In this document: piece by piece, positions 36,001 to 45,000 of the stretch
Layout: each line of letters begins with the position of its first letter
Position numbering within the stretch: position 1 is the first letter of the stretch
Assembly (NCBI GenBank): GCA_963713605.1
Contig: CAVQMO010000003.1
Coordinates: forward strand, 192,001 to 256,000
DNA from: an uncultured Nitrososphaerales archaeon
GTDB taxonomy: Archaea > Thermoproteota > Nitrososphaeria > Nitrososphaerales > Nitrososphaeraceae
Direction of reading: 5' to 3'
Length of the DNA: 64,000 nucleotides
Program-made: the position numbers

Positions 36001-39000
36001 TTTATATACCCATCAAGATTTAGATTATCACGATGAAATCGAGACTTTTAGTTATGACTATGGCGACGGCGATGGTAATTGCCATGGCTACACTAGCAAA
36101 TTTTGGGATTGGTCTAGTATCGGCACAGACAGCTGACAACGCTACTACGGGAAATATGACTGGCGGCAATATGACCAGCGGGGCTACCACGGAAGAAACT
36201 GGTGGCATAGCCGCTGCTTGCGGTGGGTATATGCCTCCCTGTTGAGAGCCTTCATTCTTTTTTATCGTTCTCAACTCAATGCCCATCAGTTGTTTAATTA
36301 TTAATCTACATCATCGACTCTTCTTCTGAAGTATTCCCTTCTTCTTTCCATCAACTATTTTAACTTGTCAATAATCTCTTTTTTTGGAAATGTATAGAAT
36401 GAGATAGTCATTAGTTAGTAGTGTGGGCATATGCCGAAACAGTTTCAATTGCTGTGAACTGATATCTGACAATTTGTAGCGGTTGCCTGAAGTCTATTCG
36501 TCGTCATCTTGTGTGCCAATGTGAATTAGTCTATTACTAATCTGTTCAGATTGTATCATAGACTTTAAATGAATAATGATTTTGTGTTGAGACAACAACA
36601 ACGACATAATTAATGACTCCGTTGGAAATGGATGTTCTTGTGCATGAATATTTATCGCGACAGAATACTTGTAACAGTCATTTAGCAGCTTTGTCAAAAT
36701 GGCTTTATCTTCGTCTGAAGGGAGTTTATCTATAAAGCCTCTCCAAGTCTCTATTTCTCTAGTAAGAACGTCTTCGTCTGGAAATAAACTCATTGTTTGT
36801 TTAGCATTTCCATGATCATTTCATAATTCCGATTTCGATGTTTCTATATCTCTCTCACGCTGTTCGTACAATTCATTCCACCACTTGGAGGTCTTTTTTC
36901 TATCAAACCCAAATAACGATCGGTTAAATCCGAATACTGATAATACTACTTCTGCCGAATCTAGAAGCATTTCCAGATATTTTTCTCTATCATAACTCTC
37001 AGAAGAAATAAGTTTGGCTGGAACTATTCTATACAACGGATCCGAATGAGTCGAATCTGTATATATATATCTGATATTATCCCCACGGTTGGTAATGACC
37101 CCCGAGATGTTTAATCTAATGGCTGCAGCAACGTGTGGAAATAAACTTCTGTATTTTTCTATATTCTGCCAATAATTTGGAGATCACTAAATCAGTTATC
37201 TGCACTTCTCCATTCATAATTTTATCAATACTGTGAGTGATGTATAAAAGCGCATTCTGATATCCGGTAGTCAAAGCTTCTTTCAGACAATTACAACCAA
37301 ATAACTCGGAAAGCAGAGTTGTCTGAAACTGTTTTATGAACGCCGGAGAATCATGCCTTCTGGTGTCTATACCTCTTGTAACTAATTGGTTGTCATAAGT
37401 AAATCCATAGTAATGCTTTTTAGCTTCCAACTTTTCATCGGCTTCAACGTGTAACAATATCAGAAATTTGTAGTGAAACTCGAAAGTCAAATCTAAACCA
37501 GTTTCTTTTGCTATCATACTCATTATCTCATCATAATCTTCTTTTGTTGCATCTCTCTTCTTCAAAAAGACGGCATCTGTATCCGCGTAAATCAGCTCGA
37601 AGCCAGCGCTTTGTACAATATCTTTTGTCTTTAATAATATCTGCCTTGAGAGCTTGTTTATCTCTTCAAAGACACGAACATTGCTGTATCTATTCCAAAT
37701 CGAACCCGATGTTCCATAAAGACAGACAAGAATTTGCTTTAATGTTTCTAATCGTATTTGACAATAAGATTGATTTTCATGGTCGGCATTAGCCTTAAGT
37801 AGTCTTTTAAGATAGACCCGCCTTCTAACGAGTTCGTTAACTATTGATGGAAGTATAGCCATCTGATTTTGTGAGTCCGAGGCTGACGGAGTCTCATAGC
37901 TAATATGATGATTCATTATCAGATTCGCATATTCGTCATTAAAATCTAGAACTGCGACATTCTCATGTGGTCCAATTTCTGGTGATATAAGCATCCCCGC
38001 CTTATCCATCTCGATAATATCTTGTAAAGTTCTGAGTTGTTCGTGATGTTTTGATATAGTCTTCATTCTTGTTGGAATAACGAACTCTCTTTGAATTAGC
38101 TCATATGTTATTCTGCTATCAATTAGTCGTATCATTCCATATTTTGAAGCGAGTCTGAGTGGGAGATATCCAAACTTCGACTTTTCAACTAATTCAAGAA
38201 ATTCAATGTCGTTCATTGAACTATGAGAATGAATTATAACTTTGTCCCTAGACCATTCTTTAAAATGAATATCATTTTGAGAATAGAGCGGTCCGTCATC
38301 GCCGCAAAAGATGATAATATCGGGATTCTTTTCTGCAATATATGAGATATAGTTTGGATCAGATAAGCCATACACTAGAAGTATTGTCAGCCAGACTTGT
38401 TCATTAGTTCTCACTATAAGTTTTAGCTGATCTTTATTGTCTTCATTGGCGGCTCGCATGATTGCATCAAATTTTCGAATATACATAGTTAAGAATGGAG
38501 GCGGGACTATCATCTTCACTATCATCTATTCTCCCTATCGATAACAATTGGTCTTCATCAAATTCAATCTTGACTTTGCTAACTGGCGGGATTTTTAGTT
38601 TAGTATAAATGAATTACATCACATCAGATAAATCGATATTATATAACGTCTTCACTCTTGAATCGAGATTTAATTTCTGAAGAAGCATTTTGAAGTCTTG
38701 TCTTTCAACTTTTTGAGAGTTTGCTAGACTGATGCTGATTAAGCGTGTTTTGTTCTTATCGTGAAGATCAATGAATTTCTCATCCCAGAATATTCGTTTG
38801 ATTAATTGGTCATGTCTGGACAGTTGTTGTAAGAGATCTTCACCGGCTGAACTAGAATTGGGAATTATATAGAAAGTTCGTTCAGTCAGTTTTTGAGTGA
38901 AGTTAATAACTTTACCATCAACTAGTTTTATGAGTATGACAATGTTATTGCTAACATAATCTTTTCTAACATCCAGTATCCATCCGATTGAGCTTTGACT

Positions 39001-42000: not shown

Positions 42001-45000
42001 GGCTCACGTAAAGCCGGTGGAGTTGGAAGAGATTTTGGATCTGGATATAAATTACTAAGTATTTGAGAACTAGAATTACGGGCATTCTCATCATACTTAC
42101 TATAATGTAAAGATTCTACCAACCAGAATCACTCTCATCTGTTTTATATGAAGTAGCGTCTTCGATTCCACTTTCGGAAATTGAGAATTTCGCACGCTGA
42201 TATGGTTGGCAGGGTGAGTCTTCCATTGTAGCCACTCTGTTCTTGCCAGATTTTCTGAGAAAGATACGGTATGTAGAGCCATGAGCTACTATGTTTCCAC
42301 CAGCCGCTTTCATGGAATCAAATCCCGGATGCATGCTGTCGGGGTACGATACTATTTGGTTTGTTATTACGACTGCTATATTGTAAATGTCGGCATATCT
42401 TCTTAATTTGTTTAGCATCTTTCCAAGTCTTTGCTGTCGTTCTGCTAGTGTTCCGCGTCCAGAGAACTCTGCTCGATGAAGACTTATTATACTATCTATT
42501 ATCACAATTTTGGCATTGTATTGCTCAATTGATTTATCCAGATCATCTATAATTGACTCTAGATGTTCGCTACTATAGACTTGACAATGAAAGATCTTTT
42601 CTAGAATGGGTAATGGGTCAAGTCCCCGTTGCTCAGCAATTTGATGTATTCTATTAGCTCTGAAAGTATTCTCCGAATCTATGAAAATTATGTTCCCCGC
42701 GTCACCGTCCGGATTTTCGATAAGTTTGCTCGCGGCAACACACAACGTGTGACAGACTTGAGATTTTCCGGACGAAAATTCCCCCACCAGTTCAGTGATC
42801 GATTGGGTTTCAAATCCACCATTTAGTAAGTTATCGAAGCCTCTCAGAACCAGTTGCATATCTAGATAGTTTGTTCCGTTTTTCTAACAAATCATCTGCA
42901 GTTAGAAACTCTTCGGACAGGTACTTTGTTATCAATAAGAATTTTTCTGGCATTTGCGATGAGTGTAGAAGCTGACTTGACGCTAAGCGACGTATCTTCA
43001 AACTCTAATGCAAGTTCGGCCGGATTCTGGACTGCTAACTGATATACCGAGTTAATATTCAATTTCTTTAGCTTATTAATCAAATCGCTAGTGATATGTG
43101 GGATCTCTTCCATAGTGACTTCTTTAAGTCGGCTAACCATGAGCATCACGGCTTGATATGTTAACTAATTTTGACTTTTTGTCTAATAAGATTGGCAGTA
43201 ACTGAGCGACGGGGGGCGGGGGATATAGATCATGCTCTCAGTCCCACATTAAGATGCCACTATTACATTATCAATATGAATCATACTTAGAATTTATTAG
43301 ATCGTAGTTTCAAGTACAATACATCACACCGTAAATATAACAAATTTTACTGCATTATTCCAATGTCCCAAACATATGAAAATTGTATACAGCGATTTTG
43401 TATTCGCTGCCAAGATGTCGGACTTGACTGTGATTGCACAATCTATGGAATTGGCGAAGAGACAATCATTTGTAATACTATTCTACACATGTTTGAATAT
43501 CATGCAATTGAGCCAAATGAAATAACTACTGGTATGGGACTTAAAATAATTGAAAATATACATGTACACCACCACTCTCCCCCACTTACAAGTCCCAGCT
43601 CATATAATAGTCATTTTTGATATGTGTTAGATATCCCAAGACAAAACCGTACTAAACTCGTTCCCCCAAAACCGGAGCCCGAGAATCAAGTTCTCGAAAC
43701 ACTACAAGAATCTAGCGTACCAGAGCGAAAAGAAGAGCCGGTGTTGTCTGAGTTAGACATGGAGATCCAATGCCCGCGCTGTAATGAGATTATGGAGTTA
43801 TGTTCAAGCTTCGATAAGTTAGTATACTCTTGCGAGAGTTGCAGCTTCTTGTTGAAATGTGTTTAGAGAGAAGACATACATCTTATAGTAAGATTTTGTC
43901 CGACTGAGATGTCCATCTTAATTTAGTATTTGAACTTTGAGCGCTAATTTCATCTTCAGTATTTTGGATTTTGGTTAGCTGCTTAGACGATTTGCTTGTT
44001 CGAGGGTCACACGGGTATTCAGCCCAATTCAAACATAGCCTGAGATTCTAGTTCTGTAGCAAAAAAATGGGAGTCTCTGACCTTAGCAGTCTGTGTCTGA
44101 ATTGTCGTCAATACCGGCCAGAGTACAGCCTAATTCATTTGGATTTTTTTCTCCAGTGACAGCTTCTGCAGTATTACCTATCCCCGCTCGCCCTTTATCT
44201 CCGTCGAAGCCTCCATCAAATGGTGGTTCACCTGCCGCGCTGCCAGCCTTTGAATGCTCCCCCAGTCCATCTGCACGACCATCATCATTATTATCTGATG
44301 TGGCGGTCTCAGATGTTACCTCACCCCACCCATCTTGTTTTGATTCGGGTTTGTCTGCGAAAGACAATGGAATCATAGCAGATGCGGCTGTCAAGGCTAT
44401 GGCTGCTAACATCAATCCCGTTAACGTTATTTTCTTATAGAATATAGTTCTATTGACTTATCTGGCAGTTGACTTGTTGAAACTTCTCGCAAGTCGACAG
44501 TATAACAAGTCGCAAAACTATTCCATCATTGCTTCACAAACAGATTGACTATGAAATTGAGTTATCTAAGAGTGGAAGTGGCTAACAGAAGTCACTAATT
44601 TCATTATTTCTTGAAGTTCAACAGTTTATTATAATAAATTCAATCACTTAACTTAGCATGTTAAACACTTATTGGATATATCATTCACGTGAGAGATGAC
44701 ACATTTATGATTATCATTTTTATAATATGCTCTACAAAGCAGTTCTGTTGAAAGCAGCACTACTATCTCAATAGCTATCGATTCCAAAAAAAAGCAATTG
44801 GTGGCAGACAAGTATTAACTCGACTACCTGGTTGTCCTGCCACTCTGTTTTTCACTGAATTAGCTCAGTTCGTTTCCAGCAGCGATTCGTCTAATTTATA
44901 AGGATAAAACCTGTAGTTAGAATTTAACGTGGAATCACCTGCTACTTTTCTTAGCATAGTCTTTGCACCCGTAAAGTCAATCATAATACACGGTTCATCT

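What a model noticed while it worked through the whole genome (the two positions that open the first line are those of the whole stretch)
37116..43146. Five-gene PolB2 operon with a dedicated RadA and a novel RPA-OB + Argonaute N/PAZ-lobe protein
The known three-gene PolB2 translesion 'mutasome' operon (iRadA-PPB2-PolB2) is here preceded by two further co-oriented, overlapping genes: a full RadA with intact Walker A (GEFGSGKS; iRadA has none) and a ~613-aa uncharacterised protein ('X') whose model shows two RPA/SSB-like OB folds (one with a Zn ribbon) fused to an Argonaute N-L1-PAZ-L2 lobe without MID or PIWI. A PAZ (3'-end-binding) module beside a polymerase that keeps its YADTD motif suggests that X holds ssDNA and a primer 3' end for the mutasome. 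The genome holds three diverged copies (~80% nt): C3:229116-235146 (all five genes), C3:470848-477121 (all five, next to a D5-type primase) and C10:875799-879582 (RadA-X-iRadA only, insi [...]
Evidence so far: tblastn with the intact same-genus operon (G234, L010) finds RadA-X-iRadA-PPB2-PolB2 in this order in G000 and in other Nitrososphaeraceae loci wherever the contig reaches (24 foreign loci looked at, one of them from an unpublished genome; 1 with X alone, none in another order); X-iRadA-PPB2-PolB2 also in a genome of another Thermoproteota family, X 25% identical (G867, calls 62, 146); X in 33/238 family genomes and 3/401 of a phylum sample; 835 metagenome homologs at E<=0.001, the 120 listed unnamed or 'hypothetical'. 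AF2 model pLDDT 80; Foldseek RPA 8oej E 1e-10, PIWI/Ago E 1e-8; VIA: MILI Z 16, CpAgo residues 7-342 Z 13.8, Hiwi1 PAZ Z 12.9 rmsd 2.5 (model 410-517), SSB 1o7i Z 14 (model 43 [...]
(Added by a program. Inside this text positions count along the whole contig: contig position 192,001 is position 1 of the stretch shown here. "Call 12" and the like, gene names such as g00115 and contig names such as C1 are that model's own, and its searches are not shown. The text may have been shortened before it was handed on; [...] marks where a part breaks off. The agent that wrote the report below was given it as the finding of a first reader that could run no searches.)

Follow-up and report, generated by a model that had tools for sequence, protein, structure and literature searches.

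The report
PolB2 operon with RPA–PAZ accessory protein
An archaeal damage-tolerance DNA polymerase operon carries two extra conserved genes, a working recombinase and an unnamed protein that joins single-strand-DNA-binding folds to the end-binding half of an Argonaute; this genome's copy reads as broken, most likely through assembly errors.

Summary
The gene set is real, but the window copy is not intact as assembled. On the minus strand, 36494-43164 holds RadA, X, iRadA, PPB2, PolB2 and a sixth small gene (PPB2_2). All but the two PPB2 genes are cut, by 7 frame changes and one TAA. Contigs from four independent public studies lack every one of these frame changes, and removing them reopens all frames. 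Essential genes of G000 (MCM, EF-1alpha, an aaRS, a PolB) are also frame-broken. The breaks are therefore most likely assembly indels (about 85%).

Intact cassettes in the same order occur in soil Nitrososphaeraceae and in a distant metagenomic clade where X is only 31-41% identical. Two AlphaFold models (pLDDT 82 and 86) give the same architecture for X. It has an SSB-like OB and an RPA1 zinc-OB, with an Argonaute N-L1-PAZ-L2 lobe inserted into the zinc-OB. There is no MID or PIWI domain. No PIWI gene was found in 14 genomes of the genus.

X is unnamed in every database searched and unmentioned in the papers found. That it holds template ssDNA and a 3' end for PolB2/RadA is plausible but untested. 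I rate it a new variant of a known kind.

The parts
43621..43863 (+). Small divergent gene with a C-terminal zinc ribbon (CPRC...CxxC), upstream of RadA. Candidate regulator or partner.
   Evidence: Homologues sit in the same place and orientation in 8 other loci of both Nitrososphaeraceae clades. Pfam Zn_ribbon hits are only sub-threshold. The copy 1-copy 2 homology ends at 43866.
42116..43164 (-). RadA paralogue (HhH N-domain plus Rad51 ATPase core). As assembled it lies in three frames, with main pieces 42892-43164 and 42116-42883. Walker A reads GEFSSGKS.
   Evidence: Pfam Rad51 E 5e-74. Frame changes are shown by tblastn. Independent contigs lack one base at 42920 (4 of 4 runs) and one at 42840 (3 runs). 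The orthologue passes the NCBIfam RadA cut-off.
40279..42128 (-). X: SSB-like OB, then an RPA1-type zinc OB with an Argonaute N-L1-PAZ-L2 lobe inserted in it. As assembled it lies in three frames (41316-42128, 40868-41416, 40279-40911).
   Evidence: 84-86% identical to the intact 617-aa orthologue. Contigs lack one base at 41372 (1 run) and one at 40885 (2 runs); with these removed the frame is 615 aa. Fold evidence.
39389..40278 (-). iRadA (Rad51-like core without Walker A), in two frames (39706-40278, 39389-39736).
   Evidence: Pfam Rad51 E 0.0011 in the window and 1e-9 in the orthologue. No GxxxxGK[ST] in 37 of 37 orthologues. Contigs lack two bases at 39719 (2 runs).
39016..39381 (-). PPB2, open, 121 aa, starting MGRITPSFR.
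   Evidence: It lies between iRadA and PolB2. Its N-terminus fits the published 'MGRT' arm with Arg3 and Arg9 (15 of 19 unfused orthologues start with MGR).
36821..39015 (-). PolB2-type family B polymerase with YADTD. Pieces are 38614-39015, an in-frame TAA at 38614-38616, then 38467-38613, 37116-38525 and 36821-37183.
   Evidence: Pfam DNA_pol_B E 9e-26. Y-D-D of YxDxD is invariant in all 23 aligned rows. Contigs lack one base at 38510 (1 run) and have CG added after 37169 (2 runs). After these edits the frames are 133 aa, the TAA, then 597 aa. Orthologues have Q where the window has TAA.
36494..36793 (-). Sixth gene, PPB2_2 (99 aa, MSLFPDEDVLT...), open.
   Evidence: Conserved directly after PolB2 in 4 other loci. 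In the contig of my locus L029, the published table labels the gene at +1 as PPB2_2. BLASTP to PPB2 itself shows nothing (E 0.5).

Best explanation
WHAT IS THERE. The window holds one copy of a conserved archaeal cassette: RadA, X, iRadA, PPB2, PolB2 and PPB2_2, with a divergent Zn-ribbon gene upstream. It is an extended form of the PolB2 'mutasome' operon whose polymerase keeps its catalytic YxDxD.

THE BREAKS. The 7 frame changes in the window are most likely indel errors of this assembly, so in the organism the genes are probably open. The single TAA in PolB2 is unresolved.

ANATOMY OF X (shown). X is an RPA1-like ssDNA-binding protein with two OB folds. The second OB has a Cys3-Cys/His zinc ribbon and resembles RPA1 OB-3 (DBD-C). 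An Argonaute N-L1-PAZ-L2 lobe is inserted into that second OB. There is no MID or PIWI.

MECHANISM (inferred). The two OBs bind the single-stranded template at a stalled primer, a gap or a D-loop. RPA has a known 5'-to-3' polarity that puts its DBD-C end next to the primer-template junction (recalled knowledge). By the same polarity, the inserted PAZ would sit where it can take the free 3'-OH end, with the N domain at the duplex end. X would thereby mark and protect the 3' end. It would recruit or position the active RadA filament and the iRadA-PPB2-PolB2 complex, then pass the end to PolB2 for extension.

WHAT STAYS OPEN. Whether the synthesis is translesion or recombination-coupled is not decided.
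For: ASSEMBLY ERROR.
- Contigs of 4 runs from 4 studies (>=95% alike, several pieces with 0 substitutions) differ from the window by 8 small indels. Seven sit at the 7 frame changes and one is intergenic.
- Applying the 8 indels gives open frames of 348, 615, 295, 123 and 133+597 aa.
- Essential G000 genes are frame-broken: MCM, a class-I aaRS, EF-1alpha and a PolB.

CASSETTE.
- Intact five-gene operons are present in 4 same-genus genomes.
- A distant clade (X 31-41% identical, GC 43-55%) keeps the order.
- A genome of another Thermoproteota family has X'-iRadA-PPB2-PolB2.

FOLD OF X.
- Model 1 has pLDDT 82.2 and pTM 0.70. Model 2, from the distant clade, has pLDDT 86.0 and pTM 0.76.
- Foldseek: RPA 8oej E 5.6e-11, Hili 9.5e-10, MILI 1.8e-9.
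- VIA on model 1: MILI Z 16.1 (282 aligned, model 264-580), SSB 1o7i Z 14.2 rmsd 2.1, Hiwi1 PAZ Z 12.9 rmsd 2.5 (model 415-521), KmAgo residues 1-302 Z 13.0.
- Model 2 gives the same pattern: MILI 15.5, SSB 15.3, PAZ 12.8.
- The search that does not lean on Foldseek finds only OB, Argonaute and Argonaute-like (Med13, APAZ partners) folds at the top.

INSERTION. P. abyssi RPA1 OB-3 aligns to model 149-617 / 128-574 (Z 12.2-13.1, 139-147 residues). The profile matches it in two pieces that flank the lobe; the second piece is weak.

SEQUENCE LEVEL. NCBIfam SSB and RFA match at E 4.5e-17 and 2.2e-16 over residues 47-240. Ta0387 OB matches at E 2.6e-6. Pfam PAZ gives E 1.6e-5, 0.0025 and 0.025 at the same residues. 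Of the 28 invariant residues of 41 diverse X sequences, 10 lie in the PAZ and 3 are zinc cysteines.

PARTNERS. RadA has a Walker A in 28 of 28, iRadA in 0 of 37. PolB2 YxDxD is invariant in 23 of 23.
Against: - There is no experimental or predicted-complex support for any contact of X.
- PAZ is below Pfam's gathering score in every homologue tested (best 25.3 against 28.8 bits).
- A PAZ holding the primer end would compete with the polymerase active site unless a hand-over occurs.
- The cassette is patchy: 36 of 238 family genomes and 9 of 18 genera (2 positives are unpublished genomes), and 1 strong hit outside the family in 401 phylum genomes.
- It is multi-copy and often decayed even in short-read assemblies. 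It sits near D5-type helicase genes in 2 of 3 G000 copies. This fits an accessory or mobile module better than a core repair complex.
- On the breaks: indel density in the operon (8 in 6.3 kb) is about ten times that suggested by ORF pairs in the rest of the window. A nonsense TAA is also present. Real recent decay of this copy is therefore not excluded.
- Three of the 8 indels rest on a single contig: 38510 and 41372 from one run each, 37169 at depth about 4-5.
Confidence: 0.5

Rival explanations
1. Recombination module rather than translesion mutasome. X would be a BRCA2- or RPA-like mediator that recognises the ssDNA/3'-end junction and loads the cassette's active RadA, with iRadA acting as a Rad51-paralogue helper. 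PolB2 would then extend the invading 3' end in a D-loop (template switch, or recombination-dependent replication).
For: - An ATPase-competent RadA is a conserved first gene.
- RadA, X and iRadA overlap each other's ends.
- OB1 also aligns to BRCA2, POT1 and Teb1 OBs (Z 11-12).
- This PolB2 clade keeps an intact catalytic motif, and the distant clade also keeps an FDIE exonuclease-I-like motif.
- The published modelling found PolB2 specific for iRadA and not RadA (passage read), which leaves the active RadA without a role in the three-protein mutasome.
Against: - A genome of another family has X'-iRadA-PPB2-PolB2 without RadA, so X is tied more closely to the mutasome genes than RadA is.
- No Rad51-binding (FxxA/BRC-like) motif was looked for or shown.
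- No assay was done.
Confidence: 0.25
2. The Argonaute lobe of X is a protein scaffold, not an end-binder. Like the APAZ and AfAgo-N partners of short Argonautes, it would dock on another protein. Candidates are the RNase-H-fold exonuclease domain of PolB2, or iRadA. Only the OB folds would touch DNA.
For: - The lobe also aligns to N-L1-L2 partner proteins of short pAgos: SPARTA 8j8h_B, SPARHA 9om4_A and Aga1 9lgw_B at Z 10.5, AfAgo-N 8pvv_C at Z 9.9, 8znj_B at Z 11.5.
- PAZ stays below the Pfam threshold.
- No MID-PIWI partner exists in the genus: 0 of 14 genomes, with positive controls. Any docking partner would have to be something else in the cassette.
Against: - X keeps a full PAZ (Z 12.8-12.9, rmsd 2.4-2.5, against Hiwi1 PAZ bound to RNA ends), which the APAZ-type partners lack.
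- 10 of the 28 invariant residues of X lie in the PAZ, which argues for a conserved ligand site.
Confidence: 0.15
3. The window copy, and perhaps all three G000 copies, is a genuinely decayed pseudogene cassette left by a mobile or dispensable element. The intact versions seen in public contigs would belong to sister strains.
For: - Decayed copies exist in other genomes, short-read assemblies included (L045, L047 and others; matches with up to 11 stops).
- G000 has clear PolB2 wrecks (C12:17752-19074 with 8 in-frame stops) and a PolB2/PPB2_2 scrap in the window at 58736-59250.
- There is one nonsense TAA in PolB2.
- Indels are far denser here than in the rest of the window.
- The ratio of indels to substitutions against the contigs is about 1:2 to 1:5. 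I judge that compatible with a young pseudogene (my own judgement; no reference ratio was looked up).
Against: - 7 of the 8 differences are tiny insertions in the window, with no larger deletions. By recalled knowledge this is unlike natural deletion-biased decay.
- No laid contig carries the window's version at any of the 8 sites.
- Essential single-copy genes of the same assembly show the same kind of break.
Confidence: 0.13
4. The cassette is a replication or defence module of an integrated mobile element (virus, plasmid), not a host repair system.
For: - There are several diverged copies per genome, for example 3 on one 110-kb contig and 5 loci in one Nitrosopolaris MAG.
- The distribution is patchy.
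- D5_N/DUF5906 primase-helicase genes lie near copies 1 and 2.
- The flanks are full of multi-copy families.
- The operon RadAs are not one clade in the quick tree (at least 3 changes).
Against: - No relative of X was found in 2 scans of the viral contig collection.
- No integrase, terminal repeat or other recurrent mobile-element gene appeared among flank clusters shared by 4 or more loci.
- The core iRadA-PPB2-PolB2 is a known chromosomal damage-response operon (abstract and passages read).
Confidence: 0.1

Closest known systems
PolB2 mutasome operon iRadA-PPB2-PolB2 (Makarova et al. 2014, PMC4104785; Timinskas et al. 2025, PMC11791011)
   Same: - The same three genes in the same order.
- iRadA lacks the N-domain and Walker A.
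- PPB2 has the MGR(I)T N-terminal arm.
- iRadA-PPB2 fusions with an internal MGR occur in the distant clade.
- A PPB2_2 duplicate is present.
- The DxD-intact subgroup is the one reported for TACK archaea.
- A PolB2 of this clade (the contig of my L029) is row 375 of their table.
   Different: - Two further conserved genes precede iRadA: an ATPase-competent RadA and X.
- Neither is labelled in their neighbourhood table (no 'PAZ' in 3 supplement files; columns -3 and -4 are empty in row 375) or mentioned in the sections I read.
- They list orc1/cdc6, lexA, SRAP and DUF72 as enriched neighbours, none of which I found here.
Archaeal RPA1 / replication factor A, especially Pyrococcus abyssi RPA1 OB-3 with zinc ribbon (8aas, 8c5y, 8oej)
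   Same: - Tandem OB folds.
- A Cys-rich zinc ribbon in the second OB.
- A C-terminal helix plus hairpin completing that OB.
- Significant sequence matches to the SSB and RFA NCBIfam models.
   Different: - Scores are far below the curated cut-offs (62 against 447 bits).
- There are only two OBs.
- A roughly 320-residue Argonaute lobe is inserted in the second OB.
- No RPA2/RPA3-like genes lie beside it.
Argonaute/PIWI N-terminal lobe (N-L1-PAZ-L2) of long pAgos and eukaryotic Ago/PIWI (MILI 9ij4, KmAgo 8xk0, CpAgo 9jh7, HrAgo1 8r3z)
   Same: The whole lobe superposes (Z 12.6-16.1, about 245-285 residues), including a PAZ that matches PAZ-RNA complexes at rmsd 2.4-2.5.
   Different: - No MID and no PIWI, so X cannot anchor a guide 5' end or slice.
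- Sequence identity is 8-15%.
- It is embedded in an ssDNA-binding protein and encoded in a polymerase operon.
APAZ / AfAgo-N / Aga1: separate N-L1-L2 proteins that pair with short (MID-PIWI) Argonautes
   Same: They are stand-alone Argonaute N-lobes without MID-PIWI in the same chain (Z 9.9-11.5).
   Different: Those proteins lack PAZ and need a MID-PIWI partner. X keeps PAZ, and no PIWI gene was found in 14 genomes of the genus.
E. coli Pol V mutasome (UmuD'2C-RecA-ATP), a functional analogue only
   Same: A damage-tolerance polymerase that works with a recombinase-family subunit. This analogy is drawn in the abstract of PMC11791011.
   Different: A different polymerase family, and no ssDNA-binding or end-binding subunit is known there.

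Membership tests
PolB2 operon (iRadA-PPB2-PolB2) | Family B polymerase directly preceded by PPB2 and an inactivated RadA, all co-oriented | tested here: met
   Window and 71 foreign loci. A same-clade PolB2 is listed as operon group 1a in the published table.
PolB2 operon (iRadA-PPB2-PolB2) | iRadA lacks the ATP-binding Walker A and the N-terminal domain | tested here: met
   No GxxxxGK[ST] in 37 of 37. The RadA profile match starts at profile position about 59-64.
PolB2 operon (iRadA-PPB2-PolB2) | PPB2 N-terminal 'MGRT' arm with Arg3 and Arg9 | tested here: met
   The window has MGRITPSFR, with one residue inserted before T. 15 of 19 unfused and 13 of 18 fused orthologues carry MGR.
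PolB2 operon (iRadA-PPB2-PolB2) | Placement of the polymerase in the PolB2 clade of a family B tree | not tested
   No tree with PolB1/PolB3 references was built. Best NCBIfam match is NF004416, below its cut-off.
RadA recombinase (NF003301 / TIGR02236) | Score above the curated cut-off; HhH N-domain; Walker A | tested here: met
   Orthologue scores 320.7 against 259 bits for NF003301, but 292 against 361 for TIGR02236. Walker A is present in 28 of 28. The window copy is in three frames as assembled.
RPA / replication factor A (OB-fold ssDNA-binding protein) | OB folds with sequence similarity to RFA/SSB models; zinc ribbon in the OB-3-type domain | tested here: inconclusive
   E 4.5e-17 and 2.2e-16, but far below the equivalog cut-offs. 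Structure Z is 12-15. C180, C183 and C194 are invariant. X is related to RPA but is not an orthologue of it.
Argonaute (PIWI superfamily) | MID and PIWI domains | tested here: not met
   The model ends with L2 plus the OB hairpin. Aligned Ago ranges cover the N-lobe (e.g. KmAgo 1-302). There is no Piwi Pfam hit in X or in 14 genus genomes.
PAZ domain (PF02170) | Score at or above the Pfam gathering cut-off of 28.8 bits | tested here: not met
   14.9, 18.2 and 25.3 bits in three homologues, always at residues ~448-521 against profile 37-102. By structure, Z is 12.8-12.9 at rmsd 2.4-2.5 against Hiwi1 PAZ. The fold is present; family membership by sequence is not reached.
PAZ domain (PF02170) | Binding of a nucleic-acid 3' end in the pocket | not testable with these tools
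   Needs biochemistry or a structure.
APAZ-type partner of short pAgo | Encoded with, or working with, a MID-PIWI short Argonaute | tested here: not met
   No PIWI in the cassette or in 14 genus genomes. The control rings in T. thermophilus and M. jannaschii.

The most novel reading that the evidence does not exclude
The N-PAZ lobe of Argonaute exists here as a DNA-replication or repair module. Inserted in an RPA-like protein, it would grip a DNA 3' end and, together with PolB2, form an Argonaute-like two-lobed machine. In that machine PolB2's RNase-H-fold exonuclease domain, or iRadA, would take the place of MID-PIWI. PAZ-based 3'-end handling would then not be confined to guide-RNA/DNA silencing. 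X could hold a short oligonucleotide or the stalled primer so that synthesis restarts at a chosen place. It would also give a candidate source, or sink, for the N-lobe in Argonaute evolution.
Probability: 0.12. Interest if true: 0.9.

Novelty: new variant of a known kind. Interest (0 to 1): 0.7.

Why it matters
By recalled knowledge, PAZ domains and the Argonaute N-lobe are known from Argonaute and Dicer (the lobe fold also from Med13), and from PAZ-less partners of short Argonautes. The fold searches here returned only those classes.

A conserved protein that places this lobe inside an RPA-type ssDNA binder, always beside a RadA paralogue and a catalytically intact PolB2, ties 3'-end recognition to DNA damage tolerance or recombination in archaea. 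It adds two components to the PolB2 'mutasome', whose composition the 2025 study calls unknown (abstract).

The proposal is directly testable with gel shifts on defined junctions, pull-downs and primer- or D-loop-extension assays.

For soil ammonia oxidisers, it marks a multi-copy, rapidly turning-over DNA-metabolism module.

For the scan, it is a caution: this genome's assembly breaks essential genes by frameshifts, so apparent pseudogenes in it need read support.

Tried and rejected
- Complex prediction, X with iRadA, both as alignments: score 0.00 twice, no verdict. It is not used as evidence either way.
- Expression: no listed holder of the stretch is on record as RNA. Nothing can be said about expression.
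- The TAA at 38614-38616: two contigs cover it (records 4 and 19). The table of other letters was cut (37 rows not shown), so I cannot tell whether they differ there.
- The search for related loci with the 33-row alignment failed for lack of a conserved stretch. I repeated it with 10 closer sequences.
- Viral contig scans with close and distant X alignments: no relative found.
- The search of earlier findings by place and by sequence: nothing.
- ESM Atlas: only unnamed archaeal clusters and no structure search.
- BLASTP of PPB2_2 against PPB2: no similarity (E 0.5). The PPB2_2 label rests on the published table only.
- RadA tree: the careful search did not finish in 300 s, so only the quick tree (SH-aLRT) is used. 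It is midpoint-rooted, so no order of events is claimed.
- Recurrent neighbours: clustering the flanks of 44 loci gave no integrase or other mobile-element gene shared by 4 or more loci. It gave only response regulators, a prealbumin-fold protein and unnamed ORFs.
- I considered and dropped a residue-by-residue comparison with the human Ago1 PAZ pocket. The reference numbering would have come from memory.
- Literature: three searches found no paper describing a PAZ/Argonaute-lobe or RPA-like protein in PolB2 operons. Subscription journals are not covered.

Full report
WHAT THE WINDOW SHOWS

On the minus strand between 36494 and 43164 lie, in this order:
- a RadA homologue (Pfam Rad51 E 5e-74);
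- a roughly 615-aa protein without any Pfam family (X);
- a weak Rad51-like protein without Walker A (iRadA);
- a 121-aa protein starting MGRITPSFR (PPB2);
- a family B polymerase with YADTD (PolB2);
- a 99-aa open gene.

As assembled, RadA, X, iRadA and PolB2 are each cut into two to four stop-to-stop pieces. Against the intact orthologues of a same-genus genome, the window has 2 frame changes in RadA, 2 in X, 1 in iRadA and 2 in PolB2. The Walker A of the window's RadA reads GEFSSGKS.

ARE THE BREAKS REAL?

Twenty public runs from 10 studies hold part of the stretch. I laid the contigs of four runs from four studies on it. They differ from the window by 8 small indels:
- one base fewer at 38510, 39382, 40885, 41372, 42840 and 42920;
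- two fewer at 39719;
- CG added after 37169.

Seven of these lie exactly in the overlaps between successive frames, and one is intergenic, just before the PPB2 start. At every covered site all contigs carry the shorter (or longer) form. Support varies: 42920 is seen in 4 of 4 runs, while 38510 and 41372 are each seen in one run. Applying the 8 changes in memory gives open frames of 348 (RadA), 615 (X), 295 (iRadA), 123 (PPB2) and 133+597 aa (PolB2, still with the TAA).

The same assembly breaks essential genes by frame changes:
- the only MCM;
- a class-I aminoacyl-tRNA synthetase;
- EF-1alpha and a family B polymerase with an exonuclease domain, all within 8 kb of contig C10.

G000 is a 15-contig, 4.08-Mb assembly with 87.5% completeness. 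I therefore read the frame changes as assembly indels, at about 85%.

Points against this reading:
- the indel density in the operon is about ten times what ORF pairs suggest for the rest of the window;
- a nonsense codon is present;
- truly decayed copies of this cassette exist elsewhere.

Copies 2 (C3:470824-477118) and 3 (C10:875802-879606, ending after iRadA) show about 13 and 3 frame changes, plus stops. They could not be checked against reads.

THE CASSETTE ELSEWHERE

Four same-genus genomes carry intact RadA (349-355 aa), X (615-621), iRadA (303-314), PPB2 (123-134) and PolB2 (717-741), with overlapping gene ends.

A scan of one genome per species found 41 loci. All are in Nitrososphaeraceae/Nitrososphaerales MAGs, including Nitrososphaera and Nitrosopolaris. 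A metagenome scan with distant X sequences found 30 more loci, with GC 43-55% and X only 31-41% identical. The table counts only the loci where the contig reaches far enough.

| Neighbour of X | Genome set (41 loci, one is the reference) | Metagenome set (30 loci) |
|---|---|---|
| RadA directly upstream | 26 of 26 | 13 of 15 |
| iRadA downstream | 26 of 28 | 17 of 18 |
| PPB2 | 20 of 21 | 12 of 13 |
| PolB2 | 18 of 19 | 9 of 10 |

The exceptions are:
- one solitary X (L050);
- one contig-end case (L052);
- one locus where iRadA was not detected but PPB2 and PolB2 were (L082);
- two loci with an insertion between RadA and X (L084, L086);
- one decayed copy (L090).

In the distant clade, iRadA and PPB2 are one ORF of 355-369 aa. 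It has an internal MGR in 13 of 18, as published for other PolB2 operons. In a phylum sample, only one genome outside the family has a strong X match. There the order is X' (lacking OB1)-iRadA-PPB2-PolB2, with no RadA.

Within the family, X occurs in 36 of 238 genomes and 9 of 18 genera. Two of the positives are unpublished genomes. Many genomes hold several copies and scraps.

TWO MORE CONSERVED GENES

The small gene right after PolB2 (36494-36793) recurs in 4 other loci. It is labelled PPB2_2 in the published table for the contig of my locus L029. A divergent Zn-ribbon gene (43621-43863, plus strand) recurs upstream of RadA in 8 other loci of both family clades. The homology between copies 1 and 2 runs exactly from the PolB2 stop to the end of this gene (36818-43866).

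WHAT X IS

X has 836 relatives at E<=0.001 in the 5.8-billion-protein set. The 120 listed are unnamed or 'hypothetical'. There are 301 hits among the 50% representatives, about ten of them full-length clusters down to 31% identity.

Sequence evidence:
- NCBIfam SSB (E 4.5e-17) and replication factor A (2.2e-16) over residues 47-240, far below their cut-offs;
- the Ta0387 OB domain, E 2.6e-6;
- Pfam PAZ at the same residues in three homologues, E 0.025, 0.0025 and 1.6e-5, all below the gathering score.

An AlphaFold2 model of the same-genus orthologue (33-row alignment) has pLDDT 82.2 and pTM 0.70. A second model, of a clade 35% identical, has pLDDT 86.0 and pTM 0.76. Both give the same picture:
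- residues ~46-150 are an SSB/RPA OB (1o7i Z 14.2 and 15.3, rmsd 2.0-2.1);
- residues ~150-250 together with the last ~45 residues match the zinc-bearing OB-3 of P. abyssi RPA1 (Z 12.2-13.1, 139-147 aligned);
- residues ~255-585 match the N-L1-PAZ-L2 lobe of PIWI and long pAgos (MILI Z 16.1 and 15.5; KmAgo chain residues 1-302 Z 13.0);
- the PAZ alone matches at Z 12.8-12.9, rmsd 2.4-2.5.

A search of 48,161 chains that does not use Foldseek puts only OB proteins, Argonautes, Med13 and the N-lobe partners of short Argonautes at the top. The profile of X matches P. abyssi RPA1 in two pieces on either side of the lobe, the second only weakly. The lobe is therefore an insertion into the OB, not a terminal fusion.

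Of the 28 invariant residues in 41 diverse sequences, 3 are zinc cysteines and 10 lie in the PAZ. There is no MID or PIWI in X. No PIWI gene was found in 14 genomes of the genus, with positive controls.

THE PARTNERS

- The operon RadA passes the NCBIfam RadA cut-off and has a Walker A in 28 of 28 orthologues. iRadA has none in 37 of 37.
- G000 also has a housekeeping-type RadA (C1), a second paralogue present three times (C2, C12, C13) and an intact solo copy of the operon type (C10:302780-303823).
- In a quick tree, the Nitrososphaeraceae operon RadAs form one clade (support 99) beside the family's second paralogue. The distant operon RadAs form another clade. Operon RadAs are thus not shown to be one clade.
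- PolB2 keeps Y-D-D of YxDxD in all 23 aligned rows. The distant clade also keeps an FDIE motif that the genus clade has lost.

COMPARISON WITH WHAT IS IN PRINT

For Timinskas et al. 2025 (PMC11791011) I read the abstract, sections 3.1 and 3.3.1, passages, and searched the supplements. For Makarova et al. 2014 (PMC4104785) I read passages. Both describe the three-gene operon, DxD-intact PolB2 in TACK archaea, iRadA-PPB2 fusions and PPB2 duplicates. Their table includes a PolB2 of this very clade, but labels nothing at the positions of X and RadA. The word PAZ does not occur in the three supplementary files. Three full-text searches found no description of X.

HOW IT MOST LIKELY WORKS

Shown:
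- the anatomy of X;
- its conserved linkage to the other cassette genes;
- an ATPase-competent RadA;
- a catalytically intact polymerase motif.

Inferred:
- The OBs bind the single-stranded template.
- RPA binds with its DBD-C end towards the primer-template junction (recalled knowledge). By that polarity, the PAZ inserted in the DBD-C-like OB is placed to take the free 3' end, with the N domain at the duplex end.
- X would mark and protect the end and couple RadA and iRadA-PPB2-PolB2 to it.

I cannot tell translesion synthesis from recombination-coupled synthesis. The presence of an active RadA and of a Rad51-paralogue-like iRadA makes the second a serious rival. The one complex prediction I ran gave no verdict.

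VERDICT

The gene set, the order and the fold are real. The window copy is garbled, probably by the assembly. The cassette is larger than stated.
- X is a new domain architecture in a known operon type: a new variant of a known kind, of high interest to people working on Argonaute evolution and on archaeal DNA repair.

Noticed in passing
G000 C1:108273-108939; C10:595714-598878; C10:600130-601246; C10:602653-605113: Essential genes of this assembly are split by frame changes: MCM, a class-I aminoacyl-tRNA synthetase (also with one TAG), EF-1alpha, and a family B polymerase (exonuclease and polymerase domains in different frames). The assembly has pervasive indel errors, so apparent pseudogenes in it need read support.
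   Followed up: partly
window 43291-43617 (+) and 43621-43863 (+): A 109-aa ORF with a weak DUF1059 hit (E 0.003) lies in the same frame as the Zn-ribbon ORF, separated from it by a single stop. They may be one gene or two. Both belong to multi-copy families in G000.
   Followed up: no
window 58736-59250 (and tblastn hits at 58729-58967): A scrap of a PolB2 3' end plus PPB2_2 (76% to 36541-37059) sits next to a broken luciferase-like monooxygenase. Intact cassettes in two relatives also sit beside a luciferase-like gene (L015, L016).
   Followed up: partly
window 55216-56367; G000 C3:467246-468997: D5_N and DUF5906 primase-helicase pieces lie 12 kb upstream of copy 1. An intact 584-aa version, with an RFX-like winged helix, lies 1.8 kb upstream of copy 2. 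This hints at integrated elements.
   Followed up: partly
window 24000-36800 and 43000-44000: The flanks of the operon are dense with short families repeated on many contigs (70-99% identity, dozens of places). Further broken genes in the window are an integrase N-domain (3513-4109), a Pyr_redox_2 gene (12343-13495) and a radical SAM gene (18013-18880).
   Followed up: no
G000 C2:85707-86771, C12:384974-386038, C13:7132-8196: Three nearly identical copies of a second RadA paralogue (355 aa) lie on three contigs, each with a Zn-ribbon gene homologue about 0.7 kb upstream. Either the assembly is redundant or this is a repeated region.
   Followed up: no
L085:12312-15524 and L076:6330-6797 (metagenome loci): Directly downstream of the five-gene cassette lies a second RadA-like gene. 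In L085 a second PolB2-like gene (27% identical) follows it. This may be a classical PolB2 operon beside the extended one.
   Followed up: no
P0039 (798 aa): One database protein joins a Rad51/KaiC-type C-terminal part to a full X (97% coverage). It could be a RadA-X fusion, or a frame error where the two genes overlap.
   Followed up: no
X residues ~28-42 (P0001 numbering), alignment A1: The disordered N-terminal tail of X carries a conserved proline motif (YPDPxxLPxPPAL in the genus, PxPxx[LI]PxP in 40-60% relatives). It is a candidate docking peptide.
   Followed up: no
alignment A7 (PolB2), columns ~230-250: The distant-clade PolB2s keep an FDIE exonuclease-I-like motif. The genus clade, including the window, has lost it.
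   Followed up: no
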